Source: Methanobacteriota archaeon (lineage in GTDB: Archaea > Thermoplasmatota > Thermoplasmata > SG8-5 > JAGLSY01). From it: DNA of 20,780 bases. Location: the NCBI GenBank assembly GCA_020697715.1, contig JAEHCO010000011.1:1-20780 (forward strand), written 5' to 3'. Below are positions 1-20,780 of the stretch, piece after piece (the stretch's first letter is position 1; the number at the start of each line of letters is the position of its first letter). The notes below the pieces were generated by a model, which was not told the DNA's origin, did no database searches, and saw only the letters and a list, made by a program, of their open reading frames with translations. A program made the position numbers and the translations under genes.

Positions 1-3000
1 GTGGTCAATTCACATCTGTAATTCACATATACCTCATCGATACCAATAAAGTCCATAAGAGTACATGTGACTGTGAATTCATCACCTGTTGTGGGAGTAT
101 CAAATGTCAAATCCAGTATCTCTGGCAATAATTTGTAGCACCCCATCACATCGGCGATCGATGAATCCACCTCATACAATAGCGTTGTCGCATTACCCGA
201 GTGTGAATAGAATTGATAATAACCTTCATCATCATCCCCATCAAAGCTCATTGAGAATGGGTATGACGTATCATTGGAGTATAATGACCATGAGGTCCAA
301 GATGAATTATCAAATGAGGATCGATACCAGAATTCTACATATTCCGATCCAACGGCAGTAGCAGAAAGGTTCATTGGCATGGTCATCCACCAATATTCTG
401 ATGGTTGTATAATCTCGGAACATGGCTCTGTTATTCCCAGAGCCACTATCTCATCCGCAATGCCCATATCGACCTCGATATGGTCGAGCCCATCTGTCGC
501 GATCGTATAGAATTGATAGAATCCATCATCAGAGTAGGTGAAGTCCCAGGAATATGGATAGGTGGTATCATTACCATATGATGTCCATCCATCCCATGAG
601 ACATTATTTACCGAGTAATTGTAGAACAATTCCAATTGCTCTATACCAACTCCAGCATCATATGCCGTGGCGTTGACGATCAAAGGATCGTCAAAGTTCC
701 AGTAAGGCATTATTGCATCTACGGAGCTGGAAGGGCGTGTGGTATCATAGCCAGCGGATGTATCATTAGATAATGGGGCAGGCTCTCTGTTTCCTGCCAC
801 ATCGATGCCTATGGAATAGAATTCATAATAGCCATCGCCATTAGGATAAGTGAAGCTGGTAGTGTATGAGGCGGTCTGATCGACCCAATATGATAACCAG
901 CCTCCCCAGGATGAATTGTCTATCGAATATCTATACCAGAACTCAACCAGGCCCACACCGCTCATAGCATCCGTGGCTGAACAATTCAATATGATAGGGG
1001 AGGTATTGTTCCAATAAGGAGATATCATTCCGATCATTGAATCGGGATTGACAGTGTCCAATGCGATCTTGATATCAGCATTGCCCGGGCCAGTATCATT
1101 ATTCGTGGCATTGTCCACTCCTCCAGAATAGAATTCATAATAGCCATCACCATCAAGGAAATCAAAGCTGAAGGAATATGGAACCATGCCATCTATCCCA
1201 AACATTGTCCAATTACCCCAGGTTGAATTGTCCATGGAATATCTGTAATATAATTCGATCTCGTCCACATCGCTCATGGTGTCATTGGCAGTCACATTTA
1301 TCGTAATAGGAGTGGATGTGAACCAATACAAGCCAAGGGCATCGACAGAGGATGATGGATCTGTGATATCATAGCCTGCTGAAACATCAGCCATTCCTGG
1401 TGCACTCTCATAGTTCCCTGCAATGTCATGAGCCCTTGTATAGAAAGAGTAATTGCCTTCACCATCTGGCCATGTGAAATTCCATGACCAGGGAGCAATG
1501 ATATCGGTTCCATACAGGACATATGCGCCGCCCTCGAAGCTGTACCGTAATTCCACAGCGGTCAGTCCAGATGGACCACTATCACTGCCAGAGGCGGTTA
1601 TCGTCAATGGGCTGGAGTGCCAATATGGGGCTATAGCATCAACAGAGGTCGATGGATCTGCCGTATCAAGGCCAGACCCTGCATCGGCTATTGCAGGAGC
1701 GACCTCATAGAATGTGGATGTAACATTCCCAGCTCTGGAGTAGAACTCATAATAGCCTTCGCCATTCGGGAAATTAAAGCTCGATGTCCAGGATGTGCCA
1801 GTTGTGTCATTCGAATATTGTGACCAAGCATTCCATGAAGAATTATCTATGGAATATCTATACCAAAACTCAACATATTCAGCCTCATGAGCAGTGGCAG
1901 TCACTGATATGGGACCCATGAAATACCAGTGAGGTGAGATAGGGTCTATGAACGAATATGTCCCTGTACTATCTACCCAGCTCACATTCCAATAATATAG
2001 TTCTGGGCTTGCACTTCCATTGCCTGACAATCGTGCCAGTAATTTGATCGAAGGATAAGTGGCAGAGTTCAAGGTGGACAGGTCAATATCCGTACCTGTC
2101 ATATTCACATAGCCAGGTATTGTATCTCCGGTCGAACTTTCAAGTATGGTGACCGTGATATTGTTCACAGCACTTGGTTCGAACTTTGTCAAGTTAAGAG
2201 AGCCCCATACCTTTCCCCCAGGCAGAGATATGGATTCAGAGGTTATGTTGCCACTGGCAAAATAAGAGATGGGCATTCGAGCCCAGAATATTCTGTAATT
2301 AGATTGGGCCGTATAGCCTCCGGCATACCATAACTTGGCATATCCATCAGTATCGATCATGAATCTTGGGCAAATTATATTTCCATCATCCAATCCAGAT
2401 ACACTATTTGGAAGGCTAAGGCCGTGCTTTGTCCAGTTCTCTCCATCCATGGAGGTCGCATAATGAGTCTCTGCAGTGCTACCATCACTTCCTGCGAAGA
2501 ACATATAATAAAGATCATCGATCTTCGTGACATCAGGGTTACCTATAGAATAATCATCAATGCTACCCGGAGTTCCTAGGTCTAGGCATAATCCTTGCTT
2601 TGTCCATGTTATTCCATCCATGGAGGTTGCTATCATGATCCGACCAGTTGATGCGTCTGAATATCCACCATACCACATCTTGTAGGTTCCATCTGACATC
2701 TTCATGACTGAAGTGCCAATTGTAAATGTGTCATCAAGATCTCCAGAAGTCCCAATATCTACAACTACACCAAATCGAGTCCAGGATAAACCATCAGTAG
2801 ATTCTGCATAATGAATGCGCCAAACAGATCCATCATAGCCACCATACCACATCTTGTAGATTCCATCTTCTTTCAATACATTTGTATGACCCAAATGCGT
2901 GCTTTCTGTGCCTGCGCCAAGATTCATTACCTGGCCTTGTTTTGTCCAAGTAATGCAGTCAGTGGAAGTTGCATGGAATAAACGATAGTTACCACCATCC

Positions 3001-3362
3001 TTGCCAGAATACCACATCTTGTAGATTCCATCATCTTTTATCACGGATTGGCCTATATTTATCCAACCCTCTCCAGCACCACTCGGTGAAAAAGCCACAC
3101 CCTGCTTGTCCCAAATAGGATCCGTAAAGGAATTCTCATCAATAGAGGAAGTATTCAATGATACAGCATTATTGATCACGACATTATTGGATTCAGACAC
3201 ATTCAGAGTATTCTCAAAAGTGTCATTCCATCCATCCCCTGTACCGAGAAACACCTCGGCAATATCTTCTTTTGCGAGTGTATTGCCAGTAGAGACGATC
3301 AAAGACGATAGCATTATGCTCAATATTACTAAAAAACTAATATACTTTTTCAATAGACTCAT
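1..3362 (-). CDS. Large secreted surface protein (>1,120 aa, C-terminus outside the window): signal peptide, five-bladed beta-propeller, about six ~100-aa Ig-like repeats
   Basis: Hand-translated from ATG at 3362 (GGAGG upstream): MSLLKKYISFLVILSIMLSSLIVSTG... The frame stays open to the window edge (...FIGIDEVYVNYRCELT), so the ORF track omits it. Repeated blade motif YKMWYxG...RI..A.S.DG..W.K.G; many NxS/T sequons. Confidence 0.9.
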   Translation of the reverse strand, partial: MSLLKKYISFLVILSIMLSSLIVSTGNTLAKEDIAEVFLGTGDGWNDTFENTLNVSESNNVVINNAVSLNTSSIDENSFTDPIWDKQGVAFSPSGAGEGWINIGQSVIKDDGIYKMWYSGKDGGNYRLFHATSTDCITWTKQGQVMNLGAGTESTHLGHTNVLKEDGIYKMWYGGYDGSVWRIHYAESTDGLSWTRFGVVVDIGTSGDLDDTFTIGTSVMKMSDGTYKMWYGGYSDASTGRIMIATSMDGITWTKQGLCLDLGTPGSIDDYSIGNPDVTKIDDLYYMFFAGSDGSTAETHYATSMDGENWTKHGLSLPNSVSGLDDGNIICPRFMIDTDGYAKLWYAGGYTAQSNYRIFWARMPISYFASGNITSESISLPGGKVWGSLNLTKFEPSAVNNITVTILESSTGDTIPGYVNMTGTDIDLSTLNSATYPSIKLLARLSGNGSASPELYYWNVSWVDSTGTYSFIDPISPHWYFMGPISVTATAHEAEYVEFWYRYSIDNSSWNAWSQYSNDTTGTSWTSSFNFPNGEGYYEFYSRAGNVTSTFYEVAPAIADAGSGLDTADPSTSVDAIAPYWHSSPLTITASGSDSGPSGLTAVELRYSFEGGAYVLYGTDIIAPWSWNFTWPDGEGNYSFYTRAHDIAGNYESAPGMADVSAGYDITDPSSSVDALGLYWFTSTPITINVTANDTMSDVDEIELYYRYSMDNSTWGNWTMFGIDGMVPYSFSFDFLDGDGYYEFYSGGVDNATNNDTGPGNADIKIALDTVNPDSMIGMISPYWNNTSPIILNCSATDAMSGVGLVEFWYRYSIDNSSWGGWLSYWVDQTASYTTSFTYPNGDGYYEFYSIGIDVAGNREPAPLSNDTSAGYDTTRPSSSVDAIMPYWNFDDPLIVNATAYDAGVGIEQLELFYNYSVNNVSWDGWTSYGNDTTYPYSWDFTYSDDGFYQFYTIATDGLDHIEVDMGIADEIVALGITEPCSEIIQPSEYWWMTMPMNLSATAVGSEYVEFWYRSSFDNSSWTSWSLYSNDTSYPFSMSFDGDDDEGYYQFYSHSGNATTLLYEVDSSIADVMGCYKLLPEILDLTFDTPTTGDEFTVTCTLMDFIGIDEVYVNYRCELT
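135..1970 (-). repeat. About six tandem ~100-aa Trp/Tyr-rich Ig-like repeats inside the ORF (approximate bounds)
   Basis: Recurring pattern DT..P.S.V....PYW...P..I.A.A.D..SG...VE.WYRYS.DN.SW..W....D....S..F....G.GYYEFYS...D.AGN.E, period about 300-315 nt. Confidence 0.8.
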
Positions 3363-3486: not shown

Positions 3487-6400
3487 TTATATTTTCTTCT
3501 TCATTTCTTTTATGTATTCTTCTTCCGTTATCTCTCCAGATATGAGCTTTTTGTCCAGATCGTTCAAATCTGCCATATCCGCATCCCCGGTCTTGCCCTT
3601 CTTCTTTTTGGCCTCAGATGTGATCAAAGTACTCGATACAAGCACTATTATCACGAGACCCATCAAGAATAAACCAGCATATGATGAAACACTGTTCTTC
3701 TGCGATTTCGAGTTCTCCACCTGTCCTGTTTCCAAGTCGAGTGGCTCAATACCGGCTTCATCTTCTGCCTCATCATCGCTTGACCTTATGGTCAAGATAT
3801 CTGGTTGGGTTGTGATAGCCAAAGAGGGCAGGAGGTTTGTATCATCCTCCTGTTCCCCCCCGTCAATGGCTATCACGGTTATCATGGGCGTGGGTCCGAC
3901 TAGCGATCCTTCCCCGGTGATCGCATCATTGCCTGAGACCCAAGCCCCATCATTGAGAGAGTATGTGCCAGGAGATGTGAATTCCTGTTTCCCAGCAGGG
4001 TTTGGTTTTGTAGATATGACAAGCTCAAGTGTGTGTATCTCATCTGCCGCCATAGTTCCGATATTCCATGTCAAAGAAGTTGAGCCAACCTGGCCAACTC
4101 CATTCGGTCCGTAGATAAGAACACCTGTGGTTATTGTGAAATCAATCAACTCAAGCTCAGCAGGAAGCACATCATGAACTACCACGTCCAATACATCGGA
4201 ATCTCCTGTATTGGCAACTGTGATCTGAAGTACCCAACCATATTTCGTGTGGGTGAATACCTCATCAGGCCCGGATGTCTTGATCTTGTCTATTGATAGT
4301 TTTCCACCAATTGGTGGATCTTCTGGTGGCTGTACAGGTTCGAATACCGTTATCTGGCATTCATCAGAGGCTACAAGGCCATCATTATCAATTACTGTAA
4401 GAATGACTGTGAAATTGCCTGTCGAGGCATAATCATGAGCTGGCGCGATACCAGTGCCATAGGTCCCGTCACCAAAGTCCCAGTTATAGGAGACAATACT
4501 TCCATCAGGATCATAGCTACCAGAGCCATCGAACTGGACATCAATGTTCAGGCATGCTTCCTGATCCAGGCCTGCATCTGAGATCGGCAGTATTGGAACA
4601 TATGGATCGATGACCTCCACCAAGCATTCATCAGAGACTGTAAGGCCATCATCATCTGTTACTGTGAGAGTGACAGAATATATGTCAACAGCATCAAAGG
4701 AATGCATAGGAACCGGGCCAGAAGCTGTATATCCATCTCCAAAGTCCCAGGAATAAGAAACTATCGCCCCATCAGGATCATAGCTACCAGAGCCATCGAA
4801 TTGGGTATCTGTGTATATGTCCACGATTATGTCTAAGCCTGCGTTTGCAATTGGGGGTACTGGCACATATGGCTCTGTCACCACGACTTCGCAGACATCG
4901 GAAGATGTCAAACCTCCATCATCTGTTACAGTTAGTGTAGCTGTGAAGCTGCCAGGAGTGGAATAGATGTGATATACAGCCATTCCAAAATCGGTCTGCC
5001 CATCTCCGAAGTCCCAGAAATATGAGATTATGGAACCATCTGGATCATAACTTGAATTTCCATTGAATTCAGCATTGGCGCCCACATCAACAAAGATATC
5101 TGCTCCGGCATCTGCGATTGGTGATTCATTGGATGGAATGTATGGGATGATGGATATCTGACCATTCGCCTGATTGTTTGTAAGATCTATATCCCCTGGA
5201 ACGACATCAGAGGCCACAGCTATAATGGAATGATCGCCCGGTTGATCTGCAAGCCAGCTTGTGGATACTGTTACTGTTCCATCGGCAGGAACGAATACAT
5301 CATACTGCCTATCTATAAGAGTTACTTCAGAAATAGTGTCAATATAGAAAGATACGGTGCATGTTGCATCCTGTCCGATCTTCGCGGCTGGTTTCTCAGC
5401 ATAGAATATGCGTACATTACTACCATCATAGCCATTGTACCAGCACTTCAAGGTATCGCCCTCTGTCATCATATAAGCGGCCGCCACCATATTGGTCTCA
5501 AGAGGCAAGGAACCTTCAAGGACTATGCCAGTCTTGATCCAGGTTATCCCATCAGTTGAGGTCGCATGCAATATCCTAGATGGCCCAGTATATGGAGCGT
5601 AACCTGTATAGTACATCTCATAACCTGTGTCTGTCACTATGACCTGAGGGTATGAAGCAGTTGGATAATCATATGGCCCATCATTGTTTATAACGACACC
5701 ATCCTTTATCCAAGGATCAGAAAGTTGCGCCTTGTGGGCGTGACATATCCTGCCCTCATTCGGAGAGCCCCAATCAGTCCCTCCATACCACATATGCCAT
5801 TCTGTTCCATCATAATGAACGAAAGGAACAGTGACACCATCAGGATCCGCAGCAGTTCCATAGCTCAGTTCCATCCCCAATTTCTGCCATGTTAGGCCAT
5901 CATCATAAGATATGGCTCTGTGAATATACCCACGGTATCCGCCATAGGAGCCTATACCGGTGTACCACATATGATAGATGCCGTCGTCATCTATCATCAC
6001 ATAAGGAGTAAGGACACCGTATTGTTCATACGCATTTCCATAATCAAGAGCCAGACCCTGCTTCTGCCATGTTATGCCATCCTGGCTTGTGGCACGGAAT
6101 ATCCTATGCCTGTATGTTAGGCCATCATCTCCATCCCCATTGTACCACATGACATAACTGCCATCATCCAGCTTTAGGACACATGGGTTTGTTACATGAA
6201 GATCCTCGCCAGTTCCACCAATGTCAATTATAACACCGCTCTTGACCCAGGAACTGCTTTGACTCTGATCTCCAAGAATATCAACATCGATGTTTATAAT
6301 ATCATTTTCAATGGCTTGATCGCTTGATAAGACCAAGGGATCCAATGAGATATCCACACCCACAGAAGGTTCTGGAAGAGCCTCCACACTTATTTGGGTA

Positions 6401-7770
6401 ATTGCCATATTATTAGTATTATCATTATCAATTGGATCTGAGTCAGTTATCTCAGCTATTATGTCATGGTCTCCTGGAACTGCTATCCAGTCAAATGATA
6501 CAGGAGTGTTGGAATCTGCTGGAACAAATGCATTTGTCTGCCTGTCTATCAGATTTGCCTCCGATACTGAATCTAAGTAAATTGACACTGTGCAGGTCGC
6601 ATCCTGACCGATCTTTGCAGCTGGCTTCTCAGAGTAGAAAATACGTTGATGGCTACCATCATAGCCAGTGTACCAACATTTAATGGTATCTCCCTCTATC
6701 GATATCTGGCCCATGCCCACCATGGTGGTCTCCAGAGGCGTGATGCCTTCAAGGACTATACCGGTCTTGGTCCAGGCAATACCATCTGATGAGGTCGCAT
6801 GCAGTATTCTTGAGGGTCCAGTATATGGAATAGAACCAGTATAATACATATCATAGCCAGTATCTGTTGGTACGATCCAAGGAGATACTGCGGATGGATA
6901 ATCATATGGTCCATCATTGTTTATAACGACACCGTCCTTTATCCAGGCATCAGATAGCTTTGCCTTATGAGCATGACATATCCTGCCCTCATTCGGAGAG
7001 CCCCAATCAATACCATCATACCACATATGCCATTCTGTTCCATCATAATGAACGTAGGGAGACCTAACACCATCTGGGTCTGCGGCAGTCCCATAATTCA
7101 ATTCCATACCTAATTTCTGCCATGTTATGCCATCATCATAGGATATGGCCTTGTGAATATACGCACGATAGCCGCCATTGGAGCCTATACCTGTATACCA
7201 CATATGATATATTCCATCATCATCTATAATAACATAAGGAGTAAGAACACCGTATTGTTCATACGCATTTCCATAATCAAGAACCATTCCCTGTTTCTGC
7301 CATGTTAGGCCATCCTGGCTTGTGGCGCGGAATATCCTATGCCTGTATGTTAGGCCATCATCTCCATCCCCATTATACCACATGACATAACTGCCATCAT
7401 CCAGCTTCAGAACACATGGACTTGTTATATGAAGATCCTCACCAGTGCCACCTATATCGATTATAACACCACTACCGACCCAGGAGCTATCCTGGGTCCG
7501 ATCTCCATTGATGCTGATATCAATAGATATGATCTCATCTTCAATAGCCTGGTAACTTGATAAGGCCAGTGCATCCAGTGACATATCCACATTGAATGAC
7601 TTTAATTCACCCTGCTGAGATGATGGTATCACATTATTTTCTGGTGTAGAGGCATCATCCATCTGAACAGAGCTTACCTGTTCCGGAACTGAACTCGCCA
7701 GTACCACAAAGGATACTGTGATCATCAGGCATGCGATAGCGAAGGTCACCAAGGTATTTTTCCGGTTCAT
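3487..7770 (-). CDS. Membrane-anchored surface protein: 2x (CARDB-like domain with inserted five-bladed beta-propeller), 3x PKD, DUF11-like domain, C-terminal TM helix, SHOCT tail
   Basis: 1427-aa ORF with AGGAG upstream. Signal peptide; MWYxG blade repeats; three SYDPDG.I.SY.WDFGDG PKD motifs; ITVANTG...VVVHDVLPAEL (DUF11-like); TM YAGLFLMGLVIIVLVSSTLI; tail LNDLDKKLISGEITEEEYIKEMKKKI. Confidence 0.92.
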   Translation of the reverse strand: MNRKNTLVTFAIACLMITVSFVVLASSVPEQVSSVQMDDASTPENNVIPSSQQGELKSFNVDMSLDALALSSYQAIEDEIISIDISINGDRTQDSSWVGSGVIIDIGGTGEDLHITSPCVLKLDDGSYVMWYNGDGDDGLTYRHRIFRATSQDGLTWQKQGMVLDYGNAYEQYGVLTPYVIIDDDGIYHMWYTGIGSNGGYRAYIHKAISYDDGITWQKLGMELNYGTAADPDGVRSPYVHYDGTEWHMWYDGIDWGSPNEGRICHAHKAKLSDAWIKDGVVINNDGPYDYPSAVSPWIVPTDTGYDMYYTGSIPYTGPSRILHATSSDGIAWTKTGIVLEGITPLETTMVGMGQISIEGDTIKCWYTGYDGSHQRIFYSEKPAAKIGQDATCTVSIYLDSVSEANLIDRQTNAFVPADSNTPVSFDWIAVPGDHDIIAEITDSDPIDNDNTNNMAITQISVEALPEPSVGVDISLDPLVLSSDQAIENDIINIDVDILGDQSQSSSWVKSGVIIDIGGTGEDLHVTNPCVLKLDDGSYVMWYNGDGDDGLTYRHRIFRATSQDGITWQKQGLALDYGNAYEQYGVLTPYVMIDDDGIYHMWYTGIGSYGGYRGYIHRAISYDDGLTWQKLGMELSYGTAADPDGVTVPFVHYDGTEWHMWYGGTDWGSPNEGRICHAHKAQLSDPWIKDGVVINNDGPYDYPTASYPQVIVTDTGYEMYYTGYAPYTGPSRILHATSTDGITWIKTGIVLEGSLPLETNMVAAAYMMTEGDTLKCWYNGYDGSNVRIFYAEKPAAKIGQDATCTVSFYIDTISEVTLIDRQYDVFVPADGTVTVSTSWLADQPGDHSIIAVASDVVPGDIDLTNNQANGQISIIPYIPSNESPIADAGADIFVDVGANAEFNGNSSYDPDGSIISYFWDFGDGQTDFGMAVYHIYSTPGSFTATLTVTDDGGLTSSDVCEVVVTEPYVPVPPIANAGLDIIVDIYTDTQFDGSGSYDPDGAIVSYSWDFGDGYTASGPVPMHSFDAVDIYSVTLTVTDDDGLTVSDECLVEVIDPYVPILPISDAGLDQEACLNIDVQFDGSGSYDPDGSIVSYNWDFGDGTYGTGIAPAHDYASTGNFTVILTVIDNDGLVASDECQITVFEPVQPPEDPPIGGKLSIDKIKTSGPDEVFTHTKYGWVLQITVANTGDSDVLDVVVHDVLPAELELIDFTITTGVLIYGPNGVGQVGSTSLTWNIGTMAADEIHTLELVISTKPNPAGKQEFTSPGTYSLNDGAWVSGNDAITGEGSLVGPTPMITVIAIDGGEQEDDTNLLPSLAITTQPDILTIRSSDDEAEDEAGIEPLDLETGQVENSKSQKNSVSSYAGLFLMGLVIIVLVSSTLITSEAKKKKGKTGDADMADLNDLDKKLISGEITEEEYIKEMKKKI
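4340..5130 (-). repeat. Three tandem PKD domains
   Basis: WDFGDG core occurs three times; identical stretch ATCAGGATCATAGCTACCAGAGCCATCGAA at ~4504 and ~4771 (267-nt period). Confidence 0.88.
5146..7593 (-). repeat. Intragenic tandem duplication of a ~411-aa CARDB+propeller module (5146-6360 and 6382-7593)
   Basis: 1233-nt offset between matching segments; long identical runs such as PCVLKLDDGSYVMWYNGDGDDGLTYRHRIFRATSQDG. Confidence 0.93.
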
Positions 7771-7817
7771 CTCAATTTCTCCTTAATTAGGGCATGTTAG
7801 AGACCATAAATATGTGT

Positions 7818-7900
7818 TTTTAGAAAAATTAAATAGAGTTTTTCCAAAATATAGTAGATAAATTCCAAAGTAAATTTAAAATAGTGCCGAGTATTTACTC
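7818..7900. promoter_or_regulatory. Divergent promoter region with candidate operators
   Basis: Inverted repeat TTTTAGAAAAA (7818-7828) / TTTTTCCAAAA (7839-7849); TTCCAAA repeated 21 bp apart (7842, 7863); TATA-like TTTAAAA 7875-7881; palindrome GAGTA-TT-TACTC 7889-7900 just before the ATG at 7907. Confidence 0.55.
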
Positions 7901-7906
7901 TTAGTC

Positions 7907-8341
7907 ATGAGAGAAAGAAGTGCGGCAATTATGAAGCATATGTCCTCGGACACATGCAATAAGATCCTACAAAGTCTACGAGAAGGACTGGATCATCCGG
8001 ACGATATCTGCAAGAAATTGGGAGTTGTGAGACAGACAGTGGACTGGCATCTATTACGACTCAGTGCTCTGGGTATCGTGGAAAGGATACCCATCTCCTC
8101 GCTCAGTGGACGGCCAAAGATAATATACCGCCTATCCAAAGATGGCGAGAACATGATAGATACCATTGATGATGCTGTATTCAAACACTATTCGAAAATA
8201 AGCAAGAGATATCATGATGAGATCAAGGAACTGGATATGAAATTGGCCCTGGCGCAGATCAGTGAAAATGCTTACAAGGAAAAGATAAAGAAGCTGGAAA
8301 AGGACCTCGGCATACTGGAAGGAGCCGGGTCATCTGAATAG
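7907..8341 (+). CDS. ArsR-like winged-helix transcriptional regulator with C-terminal SHOCT-like helix pair
   Basis: HTH PDDICKKLGVVRQTVDWHLLRLSALGIV, wing GRPKIIYRLS, tail IKELDMKLALAQISENAYKEKIKKLE. Confidence 0.85.
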   Translation: MRERSAAIMKHMSSDTCNKILQSLREGLDHPDDICKKLGVVRQTVDWHLLRLSALGIVERIPISSLSGRPKIIYRLSKDGENMIDTIDDAVFKHYSKISKRYHDEIKELDMKLALAQISENAYKEKIKKLEKDLGILEGAGSSE

Positions 8342-8477: not shown

Positions 8478-9410
8478 CTACAGCTGGATCTCGATCCCCA
8501 GTTTCTCTGTGAGTTCCTTGTACCGGTTCCTGATGGTGACCTCAGTTACTCCAGCCACATCTGCAACTTCCCTCTGTGTCCTTCTCGCATTGCACAGGAT
8601 GGAAGATACATATATCGCGGCTGCAGCCACACCAGTTGGTCCTCTACCAGATGTGAGTTCCTTCTCAGCAGCCTGCTTCAGTATCTCCAGTGCTTTCTGC
8701 TGAACATCTCCAGCTAGCTTTAACTCACTACAGAACCTTGATATGTAATCCTCGGGCTTGGTCGGCATGAGCTTTAATTTCAGCTCACGTGTCATGAACC
8801 TGTATGTTCTGCCGATCTCCTTTCTACCGACACGACTGGCACCTGCGATCTCATCCAGTGTTCTTGGAACATTGCACTGCCTGCAGGCGGCGTAGAGCGA
8901 GGCCGCTACTACGCCCTCGATGCTTCGGCCTCTGATAAGATTCTTATTAACTGCCTTTCTGTAAACCATGGCCGCGGTCTCTCTGACATTCCTTGGGAGA
9001 CCCATTCCGGAGGCCATCCTGTCCAATTCACTAAGGGCGAAGGCCAGGTTCCTCTCGGTTGCATTGGAAACTCGTATTCTCCTCTGCCATTTTCTCAATC
9101 TGTAAAGCTGGGCGCGGTTCCTGGTTGGTATGCTCTTTCCGTAGGAATCCTTGTTCTTCCAACCGATCTCCGTAGATAGACCCTTGTCATGGATGGTGTA
9201 GGTCATTGGTGCACCGGTTCTCGCACGTTTTTCTCCCTGCTCTGAATCGAAAGCTCTCCACTCCGGACCCTGGTCTATCAGCTGCTCATCTATTACCAGT
9301 CCACAGTCCTCGCAAACAAGTTCTCCACGATTATAGTCTCTGACCAGATGACTTCCCGAGCATTCGGGACATTCAACTACATCATCTGGGCCTTCTCTTT
9401 TTTTTGCCAT
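8478..9410 (-). CDS. tfb: Transcription initiation factor IIB (TFB)
   Basis: Zn ribbon CPEC...CEDC, GPEWRAF B-reader, two cyclin repeats, C-terminal [13 protein letters not shown]. Start moved to ATG 9410 (MAKKREG) behind a GGGGT RBS. Confidence 0.97.
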
Positions 9411-9696
9411 GCTTACTACCCCTTTTTTTGTTCCTGAATTTGGATTCCAGCTCTTTGTCCGAGAAGATCTCATTGTTCAACAGATGCATTCTCTCGCTTT
9501 CTGGAATATCAGATACTTTTACTATGAGATATGGTGATGCGACCGGTCCTATGGTCTTGACCACATGCCCGATCTTGATCTTTCTTCTGTCAAATACCCA
9601 TGTGCCAGGCCTATGTGCCTCGCTGGTCTTGACAAGGAGCTCACCCTTGTGATTCATATCATTGACTGTACCCAGGGATTTCATCTCCAACCTCAT
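9382..9696 (-). CDS. gar1: H/ACA RNP subunit Gar1/Naf1 family protein
   Basis: LGTV...GELLVK...VFD....IGHV...[12 protein letters not shown] signature; basic tail; position upstream of and overlapping tfb is a known archaeal arrangement. Confidence 0.85.
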
Positions 9697-18146: not shown

Positions 18147-18330
18147 TCTTGGGTATAACAGGGCTATAGAAAATACTTTTTATCAGGACACGGATGAGGC
18201 AATAGAGATCGGTGGAAGGGAAATGAAACAATTCAGTGTAGTCTGGCTCGCTTTTTCCATGCTAATTTATCATACCGATACATTTATTTCCTTAGACCTA
18301 GATTAAGCTCTAGATATGGAGGAGAGATGT

Positions 18331-20780
18331 GTGGGTAAATTTAGTGTATTTATTCTATCAATCATGATGGTTGCATCAGGATTTGGGATGGTTATCGGAG
18401 CAAATGTTCATTCTTCAAATACCAAATTGAGTGTATCATTTGGGGATGTGTACAGCTTTCCCGAGCACCCTTTCGGGGCCGATTGGACAACAGGGGAGGG
18501 GGGTGACATCATCACGATATATGCTCAGGCTGACATGGGAATGGATTCTATTTTTATAAGCACCGGTTTTGCCAATAGATTCATCTGCTCACCTACAGAG
18601 CCATGGACGTCAATGACACCCGTGGGAGATTCAGTTTTCATGTACCAATTACCAGGTGATTTTTTCAATGGCTGGAGCGTTTATGAAGCCTCCTCAAATT
18701 CGATGAGCTATGTATGGTTCCAACTGTACGGAGAAAACTCAACTACTTTCGAATATTCCTATTACCCAGATTACAATGCCAATGACCAGGATCTATTACC
18801 CACCGAGGTTGTTGAGATATTTCCAGCCTGGCCACCATCCCAGATAAATGTTACTAGTGTGGCTTCCAAGACAAATTTGAGCCCCGGTGAAATATTTTGG
18901 ATTAATGGTACCGCTGATTATTGGAATAGCACGTATGAGCCACTGGATTTGGATCCTGGTTATGACACCTTGATCCCGGTCACCCAGACAAATGTAACAA
19001 TTGCAATTAATCCCACATTTACAGGCAAGACAGATGGTAACGGTGATTTCAGCATAGCGGCCAATGCACCCGTGATTCCAGGCATTTACTGGATCAATTC
19101 AACTGTTGTTAACAATACAATGAACTACAATGGCAATCAAACAAGGAATGCAACTTGTATTTCTCACGATATACAAATTGAAGTTGGAAATACTGGCCCA
19201 GTTCACAACATTGACACCGACGAATATTTCAATGAGATACAGACAGCGATAGACGATTCAGACACCCAGGATGGGCATACAATCGAGGTCGGTGCTGGAA
19301 CCTACAATGAGGAAGTTATTGTCAATAAGACACTGACACTGATAGGTGAGGACAGGAATAATACAATGATCGACGCTGGCGGCTCCGGGCATGTTGTTTA
19401 CATCACCGCGAATTATGTGAATATCAGTGGCTTCACAATTACTGGAAGTTATGATACACCAATTGATTCGGGTATAGAATTGGAGAATGCGAATTACTGC
19501 ACTATCCAGGATGTCAATTGCACTGGAAATTTCGCTGGCATCTATCTGATATCCTCCAGTAACAACACTATCGATAAGAACCAATTCGTCATGAATGACT
19601 GGTCTGGGAATGGCGATGGAGTTCGATTAGACTTTTCCAGCAATTATAATACAATATCAAATAACTCCATATATGATAATGGCCAGCGCGGTATTATCAT
19701 TATTGATTCCAGTTCCAATACCATCTTCAATAATAATATCTCATCACATAGCTGGTATGGCGTGTATATTATGTCAAATAGTGATGGGAACATTATCTAC
19801 CATAATAATTTCTTTTATAATACAGACCATGCGTATGACGAATGCACCAATCAATGGGACAATGGCTATCCATCTGGTGGAAATTTCTGGTTGGGCTTTG
19901 CCGGTGTGGATAACTTCAATGGAGTGGGCCAGAACATAACAGGATCCGATGGGATAGGGGACATGCCCTACAACAATATCATGGGTGGAATTGAACAAGA
20001 TAATTATCCATTAATGAGCCCCTGGAATGGCACATTGCCTACACCAGCAATCACATCCCACCTACCAATCCGCATTAATTCCAACGCGGATTTTGACGAG
20101 GCTCACGGTGTGGCCAACTGGGGCACCGGAGATGGTACCGCTGGCAATCCATGGATAATCGAGAATTGGGATATCAATGGAACAGGATATGGATATTGCA
20201 TCTACATTGGAAATACGACAGAGTATTTTGTGGTGAGCGACTGTAATTTATATAATGGGACTGGAGATTATTCATGGCCATACTTCCTTAATGTGGGTTT
20301 GTCCCTTCACAATGTTGAGAATGGAATCATTAACAATATCATATCCTCAAATCAAGCTAATGGCATCATACTTGACGACTCAAATAATAATACAATATCG
20401 AACAATAATTGTTCCGACAATGTTTGGAATGGTATCCTTCTAGTTGGGGATCAAACAAGAGACAATTCGATCAATGATAATCTGGCATCAAACAATTCAA
20501 AAGGAATATACTTATTGACTCTTATTGACTATAATGATATCTCCAATAATTCATTGATGGATAATGAAGCTGGAATTCATTTATTGGGAACGGACAATTG
20601 CTTAATTGAGAATAATACAATGTCCACGAATATTATGGGCATCTATGTAGATCAAAGCGATTCAAACACTTTCGTCAATAATCTTATCTCAATAAATCTC
20701 AATTATGGGATCATGGTCTTTATTGGAAATGGTAACTTCTTTTATCATAATAATTTGGTTGATAATTTCAACCAAGCAGA
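18331..20780 (+). CDS. Large secreted protein with NosD/CASH right-handed parallel beta-helix domains (partial, >816 aa)
   Basis: Hand-translated from GTG 18331 behind GGAGG (alternative ATG 18316): signal peptide MGKFSVFILSIMMVASGFG; IQTAID...GTYNEEVIVNKTLTLIG; GI.L..S.NNTI..N repeats; WDNGYPSGGNFW...DGIGDMPY...DNYPLM; second helix after GDGTAGNPWIIENWDI. Open to the window end. Confidence 0.9.
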   Translation, partial: MGKFSVFILSIMMVASGFGMVIGANVHSSNTKLSVSFGDVYSFPEHPFGADWTTGEGGDIITIYAQADMGMDSIFISTGFANRFICSPTEPWTSMTPVGDSVFMYQLPGDFFNGWSVYEASSNSMSYVWFQLYGENSTTFEYSYYPDYNANDQDLLPTEVVEIFPAWPPSQINVTSVASKTNLSPGEIFWINGTADYWNSTYEPLDLDPGYDTLIPVTQTNVTIAINPTFTGKTDGNGDFSIAANAPVIPGIYWINSTVVNNTMNYNGNQTRNATCISHDIQIEVGNTGPVHNIDTDEYFNEIQTAIDDSDTQDGHTIEVGAGTYNEEVIVNKTLTLIGEDRNNTMIDAGGSGHVVYITANYVNISGFTITGSYDTPIDSGIELENANYCTIQDVNCTGNFAGIYLISSSNNTIDKNQFVMNDWSGNGDGVRLDFSSNYNTISNNSIYDNGQRGIIIIDSSSNTIFNNNISSHSWYGVYIMSNSDGNIIYHNNFFYNTDHAYDECTNQWDNGYPSGGNFWLGFAGVDNFNGVGQNITGSDGIGDMPYNNIMGGIEQDNYPLMSPWNGTLPTPAITSHLPIRINSNADFDEAHGVANWGTGDGTAGNPWIIENWDINGTGYGYCIYIGNTTEYFVVSDCNLYNGTGDYSWPYFLNVGLSLHNVENGIINNIISSNQANGIILDDSNNNTISNNNCSDNVWNGILLVGDQTRDNSINDNLASNNSKGIYLLTLIDYNDISNNSLMDNEAGIHLLGTDNCLIENNTMSTNIMGIYVDQSDSNTFVNNLISINLNYGIMVFIGNGNFFYHNNLVDNFNQA

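What the first reader, a model, noticed from the sequence alone, without database searches (positions are those of the whole stretch)
3487..8341. Candidate SHOCT-SHOCT transmembrane signalling pair: surface receptor plus divergent winged-helix regulator
Seen: the cytoplasmic tail of the surface protein (DLNDLDKKLISGEITEEEYIKEMKKKI) and the C-terminus of the divergent regulator (EIKELDMKLALAQISENAYKEKIKKLE) align without gaps as LD.KL....I.E..Y....KK. Known: SHOCT is a short C-terminal domain proposed to mediate oligomerisation. Inference: the membrane protein may tether the regulator through heterotypic SHOCT contacts and release it when the outer propellers bind ligand. I know of no described archaeal system like this.
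Basis: partly seen in the sequence, partly recalled or inferred. Interest (0 to 1): 0.72.

Follow-up and report, generated by a model that had tools for sequence, protein, structure and literature searches.

The report
Regulator paired with hairpin-tailed surface proteins
A small DNA-binding regulator of an uncultured Thermoplasmata archaeon and the cell-surface proteins encoded beside it carry the same short two-helix tag, and this pairing holds wherever the regulator family occurs, which points to a simple, kinase-free link between a partner protein and gene control that has not yet been tested at the bench.

Summary
The cytoplasmic tail of the 1427-aa surface protein (3487..7770, -) and the C-terminus of the divergent 144-aa winged-helix protein (7907..8341, +) share one two-helix motif, LDxxLxxGEI[ST]ExxY. 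A profile of regulator tails finds the surface tail at E=2e-6, one of two non-self hits among 1819 ORFs.

Neither tail reaches Pfam's SHOCT cut-off, so the motif is SHOCT-like, not a proven member.

The regulator family is confined to this class. In 43 of 49 loci examined, a gene beside the regulator, nearly always divergent, carries the same motif. All 45 motif-bearing ORFs lie within 3 kb of the regulator and none of 1564 ORFs lies further out. The usual partner is an N-terminal-motif bactofilin-like protein. In the window's lineage it is a run of type-I surface proteins with motif tails (three in genus-mate G021). Beta-helix homologues without the motif have no regulator.

I read the motif as the physical link: the partner captures the regulator, which controls the shared promoter region. 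Binding is untested because the complex predictor never accepted the job. Ligand-triggered release is speculation.

Closest in print are BacR/BacEF and bacterial HTH-SHOCT-like contexts. This scan noted the bactofilin version earlier on other DNA. I class it as a new variant of a known kind.

The parts
7907..8341 (+). Regulator gene, 144 aa: winged helix-turn-helix plus a C-terminal two-helix hairpin
   Evidence: ORF. Pfam HxlR 23.0 bits (cut-off 20.8) and HTH_5 22.9 bits (cut-off 22). AF2 model has pLDDT 89.7, with H3-12, H15-25, H31-38, H42-54, wing E58-63/E71-76, H78-114, turn 115-119 and H120-137. Foldseek best matches are MarR, ArsR, PadR, HxlR and Phr-type regulators. The genome holds a single copy.
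8030..8068 (+). Predicted recognition helix (residues 42-54, RQTVDWHLLRLSA)
   Evidence: Helix H42-54. R42 and D46 are invariant and Q43 nearly invariant across 31 class-wide family members.
8219..8299 (+). SHOCT-like motif of the regulator (residues 105-131)
   Evidence: L109, D110, L113, A114, E120 and Y123 are invariant in 18 homologues. The motif is conserved across 50 family members. It spans the end of H78-114, the turn and H120-137.
7771..7906 (.). Shared divergent promoter region
   Evidence: Conserved blocks across 6 genomes of 3 families.
7818..7849 (.). Inverted repeat TTTTAGAAAAA-N10-TTTTTCCAAAA, a candidate operator
   Evidence: Found. The left arm is invariant and the right arm largely conserved in relatives. 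The pattern TTTT[AG]GAAAA-N6-16-TTTTC[CT]AAAA occurs once in the 2.12-Mb genome, here, with 11 half-sites in all. Binding by the regulator is inferred, not shown.
7867..7884 (+). AAAGTAAATTTAAAATAG: BRE/TATA-like element about 24 nt before the regulator's ATG
   Evidence: Nearly invariant in the 6-genome alignment. Reading it as BRE/TATA rests on general knowledge of archaeal promoters and was not tested.
3487..7770 (-). Surface protein 1, 1427 aa, type-I topology
   Evidence: ORF. Domains. Hydrophobic segments lie near residues 5 and 1359.
5161..7569 (-). Two beta-propeller-like modules that are internally duplicated (about residues 68-505 and 510-870; limits approximate)
   Evidence: Glyco_hydro_32N E=1.1e-14 in 4 stretches, BNR_2 E=1.1e-7 in 2 stretches. 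The duplicated sequence is visible in the translation.
4345..5130 (-). Three PKD domains (residues 881-1142)
   Evidence: PKD_4 E=6.9e-69, 3 stretches.
4000..4230 (-). DUF11 repeat (residues 1181-1257)
   Evidence: PF01345 E=2.6e-8, 34.6 bits, cut-off 24.6.
3619..3681 (-). Membrane helix (residues 1364-1384, YAGLFLMGLVIIVLVSSTLIT)
   Evidence: Hydropathy scan; sequence.
3490..3618 (-). Cytoplasmic tail (residues 1385-1427) holding the SHOCT-like hairpin (core 1401-1427, nt 3490-3570)
   Evidence: KKKKGK directly follows the membrane helix. Regulator-tail HMM E=2.1e-6. Pfam SHOCT 13.6 bits, E=0.057, below the cut-off of 27. AF2 of the 44-aa tail alone gives helix, turn (GEIT), helix, with pLDDT 73 overall and 86-87 over the motif.
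3..3362 (-). Surface protein 2, 5' part (1120 aa, runs off the contig); the same cluster continues on contig C28
   Evidence: Signal-like N-terminus, GH130-like and Big_7 domains. It aligns to residues up to 1497 of the 1854-aa G021 orthologue. The ORF C28:1-1050 aligns to residues 1503-1854 and ends in TM plus a motif tail. The next gene, C28:1172-3112 (646 aa), also ends in TM plus a motif tail.

Best explanation
The 144-aa protein is a dimeric winged-helix transcription regulator. Its C-terminal two-helix, SHOCT-like hairpin is the handle by which the proteins encoded across the divergent promoter hold it.

In most of the class the holder is a cytoplasmic bactofilin-like beta-helix protein that has the same hairpin at its N-terminus. 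In the window's lineage that protein has been replaced by a run of type-I surface proteins: three in genus-mate G021. In G000 the first lies in the window, the second is split between the window's contig and C28, and the third lies on C28. Each ends in a membrane helix plus the hairpin on the cytoplasmic side.

My proposal is that the partner hairpin pairs with the regulator hairpin. This draws the regulator to the membrane and/or breaks its DNA-binding dimer, so the amount or state of the surface proteins feeds back on transcription from the shared intergenic region. The candidate operator there is the unique inverted repeat at 7818-7849.

Shown: the shared motif, the two predicted hairpin folds, the membrane topology, and the near-universal adjacency and co-occurrence. 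Inferred: direct hairpin-to-hairpin binding, DNA binding at the repeat, and the direction of regulation. No evidence bears on an extracellular ligand.
For: 1. Same motif in both proteins.

2. Adjacency. I examined 49 regulator loci from 46 other genomes, chosen from the places listed. A non-regulator ORF with the motif lies beside the regulator in 43 of them (38, 5 more), nearly always divergent with a 50-370 bp gap. Of 1231 ORFs of at least 60 aa within 3 kb of the regulator, 45 carry the motif. Of 1564 ORFs further away, none does. The loci total 703,850 bases.

3. Two unrelated partner classes share only the motif. One is N-terminal motif plus beta-helix: Bactofilin up to 42.4 bits, and a SHOCT hit in 5 of 6 at 16-22 bits. 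The other is signal peptide, ectodomain, membrane helix and C-terminal motif, with differing ectodomains: GH32/BNR propellers, PD40, Laminin_G_3, GH130.

4. Phyletic pattern. Family tallies of the beta-helix partner mirror those of the regulator. The exceptions are informative. In f13, f11 and f2 the beta-helix is found in 53/59, 8/10 and 8/13 genomes, but the matches lack the N-terminal motif, and the regulator is found in 0/59, 0/10 and 1/13. In f1 (beta-helix 0/4), G072, G111, G174 and G002, the regulator is present with tail-bearing surface partners instead.

5. All 7 of 7 sampled motif-less beta-helix loci have no motif and no regulator within about 2 kb.

6. In the genome itself, 3 of the 6 motif hits among 1819 ORFs belong to the cluster beside the regulator.

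7. Of 12 homologues of the surface protein, only the 4 on regulator-bearing contigs have the tail.

8. The promoter region is conserved, with a genome-unique inverted repeat. A different conserved palindrome, TTCAACT-N4-AGTTGAA, sits at the same place in bactofilin-type loci.

9. Precedent. In B. subtilis, purified bactofilins bind BacR, reduce its DNA binding and recruit it to the membrane (PMC13649987, abstract and passages).
Against: - No binding data of any kind exist here. The complex prediction never ran.
- Pfam SHOCT is sub-threshold for the surface tail and absent for the window's regulator tail.
- The window's regulator has a degenerate turn and is missed by the partner-motif HMM. Only 22 of 49 regulators are hit by that HMM at E<0.01.
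- The only published test of SHOCT self-association was negative (PMC3581485).
- A regulator hairpin is not clearly more similar to its own partner than to other partners: 36.8 against 35.4, with 282 of 5000 shuffles as high.
- The genome holds further motif-tailed membrane proteins not in this cluster, such as C29:149537-149845, C28:226546-228009 and C29:17488-27624. The tail therefore has a use that does not need an adjacent regulator.
- The change of partner class may be a single ancient event. The tree needs 2 changes, and one clade holding all 10 tail-partnered regulators is not rejected, p-AU 0.37. The surface-protein association may thus count as only one or two independent observations.
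- In BacR, the AlphaFold-predicted interface lies near the HTH, not at a shared hairpin.
- I picked the loci for flank length and family spread, not at random.
Confidence: 0.5

Rival explanations
1. Co-localisation without direct contact. The SHOCT-like hairpin is a peripheral membrane or hub-binding module, as proposed for bacterial SHOCT-like domains. The regulator and its partner each use it to reach the same sub-membrane site or a common third factor. Coupling then arises from competition or proximity, not from hairpin-to-hairpin pairing.
For: PMC11237479 predicts that SHOCT-like domains anchor disparate domains to the inner leaflet of the membrane (passages read). The genome has several motif-tailed membrane proteins that lack an adjacent regulator. 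The published self-association test of SHOCT was negative. No own-partner covariation was seen.
Against: The hairpins are strongly charged and have only a narrow hydrophobic stripe (sequences). A tail already fixed to a membrane helix needs no membrane anchor. This reading does not by itself explain why the regulator is absent exactly where the beta-helix protein lacks the motif, although a shared hub could explain it.
Confidence: 0.25
2. Independent homo-oligomerisation modules. Each protein uses its own hairpin only to self-associate. The regulator simply controls the neighbouring operon, and the shared motif has no role in communication between them.
For: The regulator's long helix plus hairpin looks like the C-terminal dimerisation element of many winged-helix regulators, for example Phr 2p4w among the Foldseek matches. 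SHOCT was first proposed as an oligomerisation domain. The conserved divergent promoter fits plain local regulation.
Against: This gives no reason why the target's product should always carry the regulator's motif across two unrelated partner classes. It also gives no reason why motif-less beta-helix homologues should lack the regulator. The published oligomerisation test was negative.
Confidence: 0.15
3. Chance neighbours. A common lysine- and glutamate-rich helical tail happens to occur in two adjacent genes.
For: The motif is short and compositionally simple. About 6-8 ORFs of the genome carry it.
Against: With 6 motif ORFs among 1819, chance adjacency is of the order of 1%. The pairing recurs in 43 of 49 loci, and none of 1564 more distant ORFs has the motif.
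Confidence: 0.02

Closest known systems
BacR (YhbD, DUF4004) with bactofilins BacE/BacF of Bacillus subtilis (PMC13649987; abstract and passages read)
   Same: A small HTH regulator is encoded beside a structural partner. The partner binds the regulator, lowers its DNA binding and recruits it to the membrane. The regulon is essentially the local operon. This is the best experimental model for how the present pair may work.
   Different: BacR belongs to the DUF4004 family and is not a winged helix with a SHOCT-like tail. Pfam found no DUF4004 hit. Its genes lie in one operon rather than divergently. The paper's main text does not contain the word SHOCT (0 occurrences), and the predicted interface is near the HTH. 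The system is bacterial, and the partner is a bactofilin, not a membrane-spanning surface protein.
[quoted passage not shown]
   Same: An HTH regulator with a C-terminal SHOCT-like domain is encoded next to a protein that starts with a SHOCT-like domain. A beta-helical partner also occurs. The authors propose a role in passing membrane-proximal signals to transcription.
   Different: The DNA-binding domain differs: a zinc ribbon plus DUF2089 HTH, with no such Pfam hit here. The contexts are bacterial. The authors propose membrane anchoring, not hairpin-to-hairpin binding. No type-I surface proteins with C-terminal hairpins are described as partners in the text I read.
Thermoplasmatota wHTH-SHOCT regulator / SHOCT-bactofilin pair
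   Same: It is the same regulator family and the same hairpin. I rediscovered the pair independently before reading those notes. It is the parent system of the window's variant.
   Different: In the window's lineage the bactofilin-like partner is not found: f1 0/4 and G000 none. Membrane-spanning surface proteins with C-terminal hairpins take its place.
Pfam SHOCT, PF09851 (PMC3581485; passages read)
   Same: A short two-helix module at a protein terminus, often following a membrane segment and found on many unrelated proteins. The sequence pattern is similar. The N-terminal motif of the beta-helix partners scores 16-22 bits.
   Different: The curated cut-off of 27 bits is not reached by any sequence tested here. 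Its function is unknown, and the published oligomerisation test was negative.
Membrane anti-sigma factor / ECF sigma pairs and PspA-PspF
   Same: The logic is the same: a membrane or envelope protein holds its own transcription factor and releases it according to its state.
   Different: No sigma factor or enhancer-binding protein is involved. The proposed contact is between two copies of one small hairpin. The system is archaeal.

Membership tests
Pfam SHOCT (PF09851) | Score at or above the curated gathering cut-off (27 bits) | tested here: not met
   The surface tail scores 11.2 bits in the whole protein and 13.6 bits (E=0.057) as a fragment. The regulator tail gets no hit. Among 18 regulator homologues, 2 give a hit, best E=0.041. 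Beta-helix partners score 16.2-22 bits in 5 of 6.
Pfam SHOCT (PF09851) | Short two-helix (helix-turn-helix) fold of about 28 residues | tested here: met
   In the regulator model the motif spans the end of H78-114, the turn 115-119 and H120-137. The surface tail alone is predicted as H13-28, a 4-residue turn (GEIT) and H33-43, at moderate confidence (pLDDT 73, single sequence). These are predictions only.
Pfam SHOCT (PF09851) | Location at a protein terminus, often after a membrane segment | tested here: met
   The motif is C-terminal in both window proteins and N-terminal in the beta-helix partners. Both positions are described for SHOCT and SHOCT-like domains.
SHOCT-like regulator contexts of PMC11237479 (DUF2089-type) | Zinc ribbon plus DUF2089 HTH ahead of the SHOCT-like tail | tested here: not met
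   No DUF2089 or zinc-ribbon hit among the Pfam matches of the regulator or its 18 homologues. The fold is a winged helix.
SHOCT-like regulator contexts of PMC11237479 (DUF2089-type) | HTH-SHOCT-like gene next to a gene for a SHOCT-like+X protein | tested here: met
   43 of 49 loci, and the window itself.
BacR / DUF4004 regulators | DUF4004 (PF13171) domain | tested here: not met
   It is not among the Pfam hits at E<=1 or E<=10 for 18 homologues (first 25 of 49 families shown).
BacR / DUF4004 regulators | Partner binds the regulator and lowers its DNA binding | not testable with these tools
   This needs purified proteins. The complex prediction did not run.
ArsR/HxlR-type winged-helix regulators | Winged helix-turn-helix fold and family HMM above cut-off | tested here: met
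   HxlR 23.0 bits against 20.8 and HTH_5 22.9 against 22, which is marginal. HxlR and HTH_5 hit 18 of 18 homologues. The AF2 fold and Foldseek matches agree. All NCBIfam named families are far below their cut-offs.
Bactofilin (PF04519), for the class-wide partner, not the window | Bactofilin beta-helix domain above cut-off (27.9 bits) | tested here: inconclusive
   Of 6 partners, 1 is above the cut-off (42.4 bits). Four score below it (15.9-27 bits) and one gives no Bactofilin hit. There are also weak DUF2807 and FapA hits.

The most novel reading that the evidence does not exclude
SHOCT-like hairpins may be a general heterotypic connector between a transcription regulator and the protein whose state it reports. 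In this archaeal lineage the connector would have been moved from a cytoplasmic bactofilin onto the inner tails of type-I surface proteins. That would create a kinase-free, protease-free transmembrane route: the surface protein's tail captures the dimerisation hairpin of a soluble winged-helix regulator, acting as a decoy in the manner of Id proteins against bHLH factors, and so sets transcription of its own operon. If true, this would also give the widespread but function-less SHOCT domain its first defined activity.
Probability: 0.3. Interest if true: 0.8.

Novelty: new variant of a known kind. Interest (0 to 1): 0.62.

Why it matters
SHOCT and SHOCT-like hairpins occur on many unrelated prokaryotic proteins, and no function has been demonstrated for them. 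Here the comparative pattern makes one function directly testable with two small proteins or peptides. The regulator is present only where its neighbour carries the hairpin, whatever else that neighbour is.

Archaea have few characterised routes from the cell surface to transcription. A surface protein that holds its own regulator by a 30-residue tail would be among the simplest. The swap of partner, from bactofilin to surface proteins, shows how such a module could be rewired by moving only a hairpin.

If binding fails, the pattern still marks a conserved regulator-target pair whose shared motif needs another explanation.

Tried and rejected
- **Complex prediction** (regulator alignment A1 with the tail, A2 residues 1384-1427). 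It was never accepted, either because the queue was full or because the machine gave no usable answer. There is therefore no verdict of any kind on binding.
- **Own-partner covariation of the hairpins.** No clear signal.
- **Charge complementarity.** After the conserved Tyr, regulators are basic (+2.7) and beta-helix partners acidic (-2.2), but tail-type partners are basic too (+1.6). There is no general rule, and the acidic linker may explain the first case.
- **The search for related loci with the broad alignment A4.** I used A1 and the genome search instead.
- **Solved structures by sequence.** Nothing informative for the regulator profile or a beta-helix partner.
- **NCBIfam.** No named family for the regulator or the partner.
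- **The beta-helix partner elsewhere in G000.** tblastn found only hairpin-sized matches and the profile search found none. The genome is 93.8% complete.
- **TFB as part of the system.** TFB (8478..9473, -) is next to the regulator in the window and in 4 of the 5 other loci of the window's regulator clade (L033, L034, L036, L037). In L035 the neighbouring ORF showed no TFB match. It is not seen next to the regulator in the other loci printed (part of the output was cut). I treat it as local synteny.
- **Chance adjacency.** Considered and rejected.
Full report
**What is in the window.** The window is the first 20,780 bases of contig C2 of a 2.12-Mb, 34-contig genome that is 93.8% complete. Close relatives are deposited as uncultured Thermoplasmata or Thermoplasmatota archaea.

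The ORF 3487..7770 (-) encodes a 1427-aa protein with, in order:
- a signal-like N-terminus;
- two internally duplicated beta-propeller-like modules (Glyco_hydro_32N E=1.1e-14, BNR_2 E=1.1e-7);
- three PKD domains (E=6.9e-69);
- a DUF11 repeat;
- a membrane helix (residues 1364-1384);
- a 43-residue tail that starts with KKKKGK and is therefore cytoplasmic by the positive-inside rule.

Across a 136-bp gap, 7907..8341 (+) encodes a 144-aa protein. It scores just above Pfam's cut-offs for HxlR and ArsR-type winged helices. AlphaFold2 models it at pLDDT 89.7 as a winged helix followed by a long helix (78-114), a short turn and a last helix (120-137). Foldseek finds only generic MarR, ArsR, PadR, HxlR and Phr-type regulators.

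**Is the likeness more than chance?** Yes.
- The regulator's 27-mer was slid over every window of the other 1818 ORFs of the genome. Its second-best match is the neighbour's tail.
- Eighteen homologues of the regulator keep the tail motif, and most have a cleaner LDxxLAxGEISExxY.
- An HMM of 50 regulator tails hits the surface protein at E=2.1e-6. Only one other non-self ORF scores comparably, and the next is at E=0.36.
- An HMM made from partner motifs of other genomes, with no window sequence in it, hits the surface tail at E=2.5e-7.
- The two profiles align with hhalign probability 97.4%.
- The 44-residue tail alone is predicted as helix, GEIT turn, helix.

**Is it SHOCT?** Not by Pfam's standard.
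- The surface tail scores 13.6 bits and the window's regulator tail gets no hit, against a cut-off of 27.
- Only 2 of 18 regulator homologues give any SHOCT hit.
- The same motif at the N-terminus of the class-wide partner scores 16-22 bits in 5 of 6 proteins.

I therefore call it SHOCT-like. The SHOCT paper itself reports that its oligomerisation test did not support that role (PMC3581485, passages).

**What the relatives show.** The regulator family occurs in 121 of 401 sampled genomes of the class, nearly always as a single copy. Outside the class only the winged-helix part finds matches. In 1.84 billion representative proteins, full-length matches are all small proteins, none fused to a partner.

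I fetched 49 loci from 46 other genomes. They were chosen for flank length and family spread, not at random. I scanned all 2844 ORFs of at least 60 aa.
- A non-regulator ORF with the motif lies beside the regulator in 43 loci. It is nearly always divergent, with a gap of 50-370 bp.
- Of the six loci without a detected partner, four are cut by a contig end (L034, L035, L052, L038). Two (L057, L058) show the motif by eye but below threshold.
- All 45 motif ORFs lie within 3 kb of the regulator, out of 1231 ORFs there. None of 1564 ORFs further out has the motif.

**Two partner classes.** The common partner is a 283-374-aa cytoplasmic protein made of the motif, an acidic linker and a bactofilin-like beta-helix.

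The other class is signal peptide, ectodomain, membrane helix and C-terminal motif. It is found in the window's own regulator clade (6 loci) and beside the regulators of G174, G011, G002 and a second copy in G072. The ectodomains differ between these proteins: GH32/BNR propellers, PD40, Laminin_G_3, GH130.

In the genus-mate G021, whose contig is intact, three consecutive surface-protein genes of 1643, 1854 and 641 aa follow the divergent promoter. Each ends in a membrane helix plus the motif. In G000 the second gene is the one that runs off the window at position 3. It continues on contig C28: alignment to G021 residues stops at 1497 on one contig and resumes at 1503 on the other. The third gene is C28:1172-3112. 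Three of the six motif ORFs of the whole genome therefore sit in this one cluster.

Among 12 homologues of the window's surface protein, only the four on regulator-bearing contigs have the tail. The other eight end in a membrane helix and a few basic residues. For one of the four, the shared contig is inferred only from equal contig length and source.

**Presence and absence.** A profile of the beta-helix partner gives family tallies that mirror those of the regulator. The exceptions run in two directions.
- In families f13, f11 and f2 the beta-helix protein is common (53/59, 8/10, 8/13) but the regulator is not found (0/59, 0/10, 1/13). There the matches start at about model position 45-80, so the N-terminal motif is missing. 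Seven of seven such loci that I fetched have no motif and no regulator nearby. The f13 tally includes three unpublished genomes (G301, G098, G211).
- In f1 (0/4), G072, G111, G174 and G002 the beta-helix protein is not found and the regulator sits beside tail-bearing surface proteins.

G000 has no beta-helix homologue by tblastn or by profile.

On a maximum-likelihood tree of 50 regulators the partner class changes at least twice. A single origin of all ten tail-partnered regulators is not rejected, p-AU 0.37. The switch may therefore be one old event.

**Promoter region.** The intergenic DNA is conserved across three families. It holds an inverted repeat, TTTTAGAAAAA-N10-TTTTTCCAAAA at 7818-7849, whose pattern occurs nowhere else in the genome. 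A BRE/TATA-like block lies about 24 nt before the regulator's start codon. Bactofilin-type loci have a different conserved palindrome, TTCAACT-N4-AGTTGAA, at the equivalent place. That the regulator binds these sites is inference.

**Mechanism.** The simplest reading of a regulator that is present only where its neighbour carries the regulator's own hairpin is that the hairpins are the point of contact. I propose that the partner's hairpin pairs with the regulator's hairpin. This would hold the regulator at the membrane (surface partners) or on a filament (bactofilin partners), or break its dimer. The partner's abundance or state would then feed back on the shared promoter.

The best experimental precedent is B. 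subtilis BacR. Bactofilins bind it, reduce its DNA binding and recruit it to the membrane (PMC13649987, abstract and passages). Bacterial gene contexts of the form HTH-SHOCT-like next to SHOCT-like+X are tabulated in PMC11237479, whose authors favour membrane anchoring.

Against my reading:
- there are no binding data;
- hairpins show no own-partner covariation;
- the published SHOCT self-association test was negative;
- other motif-tailed membrane proteins of the genome have no adjacent regulator;
- the window's own regulator has a degenerate turn.

**Novelty.** Literature searches for SHOCT domain, SHOCT-like, SHOCT with bactofilin, bactofilin with archaea and Thermoplasmat-, and YhbD with bactofilin found no description of the archaeal pair. 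The library covers open-access papers and bioRxiv only.

This scan had already noted the regulator-bactofilin form three times on other DNA. I had reached the same pairing independently. New here are the surface-protein form, the three-gene tail cluster, and the finding that motif-less beta-helix homologues lack the regulator. I class it as a new variant of a known kind.

Noticed in passing
window 1-3362 and contig C28:1-3112 of the same genome: The left end of the window's contig and the start of contig C28 appear to be neighbours. The two gene halves align to residues up to 1497 and from 1503 of one 1854-aa G021 protein. The assembly break therefore falls inside a repeat-rich surface-protein gene.
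   Followed up: yes
G000 C29:149334-149845; C28:205451-207151; C28:226546-228009; C29:17488-27624; C11:735269-735616: Further membrane proteins of the genome end in the same kind of hairpin: two small adjacent ones of 65 and 102 aa, and large ones of 487, 566 and 3378 aa. None has an adjacent copy of this regulator. The 102-aa protein is the best match in the genome to the regulator's tail.
   Followed up: partly
L041, L043-L047, L064-L068 intergenic regions (alignment A5): Bactofilin-type loci of one family share a perfect palindrome, TTCAACT-N4-AGTTGAA, just upstream of a TATA-like CCTAAATA before the regulator gene. This is a likely operator for that branch of the family.
   Followed up: partly
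L049:9471-10229, L050:9420-10178, L069:9467-10339, L071:8250-8993: In one family a third conserved gene (about 250 aa) lies convergent to the regulator. It ends in a related motif, ...ARGE[LVI][ST][LI]DEAI..., that lacks the aromatic residue. Pfam gives only a weak VbhA-like hit.
   Followed up: no
window 8478-9473 (-) and 9382-9696 (-): TFB (TFIIB repeats E=1.3e-50 plus zinc ribbon) lies convergent to the regulator, also in four of the five other loci of the window's regulator clade. A 104-aa ORF with a lysine/arginine-rich end overlaps the start of TFB, recurs in G021 and has no Pfam hit at E<=1e-4.
   Followed up: partly
window 18316-20778 (+): Another large secreted protein with NosD/right-handed beta-helix repeats (E=1.8e-45) runs off the right end of the window.
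   Followed up: no
proteins P0105 (1655 aa), P0118 (576 aa), P0140 (915 aa): Some long proteins in the representative library match the hairpin part of the regulator profile 4-10 times. They look like arrays of SHOCT-like hairpins.
   Followed up: no
L075 (G174:C79:1901-2317): The regulator match in this genome contains one in-frame TAG according to the genome search. It still sits beside a 774-aa PD40/PKD/DUF11 surface protein with a motif tail.
   Followed up: no
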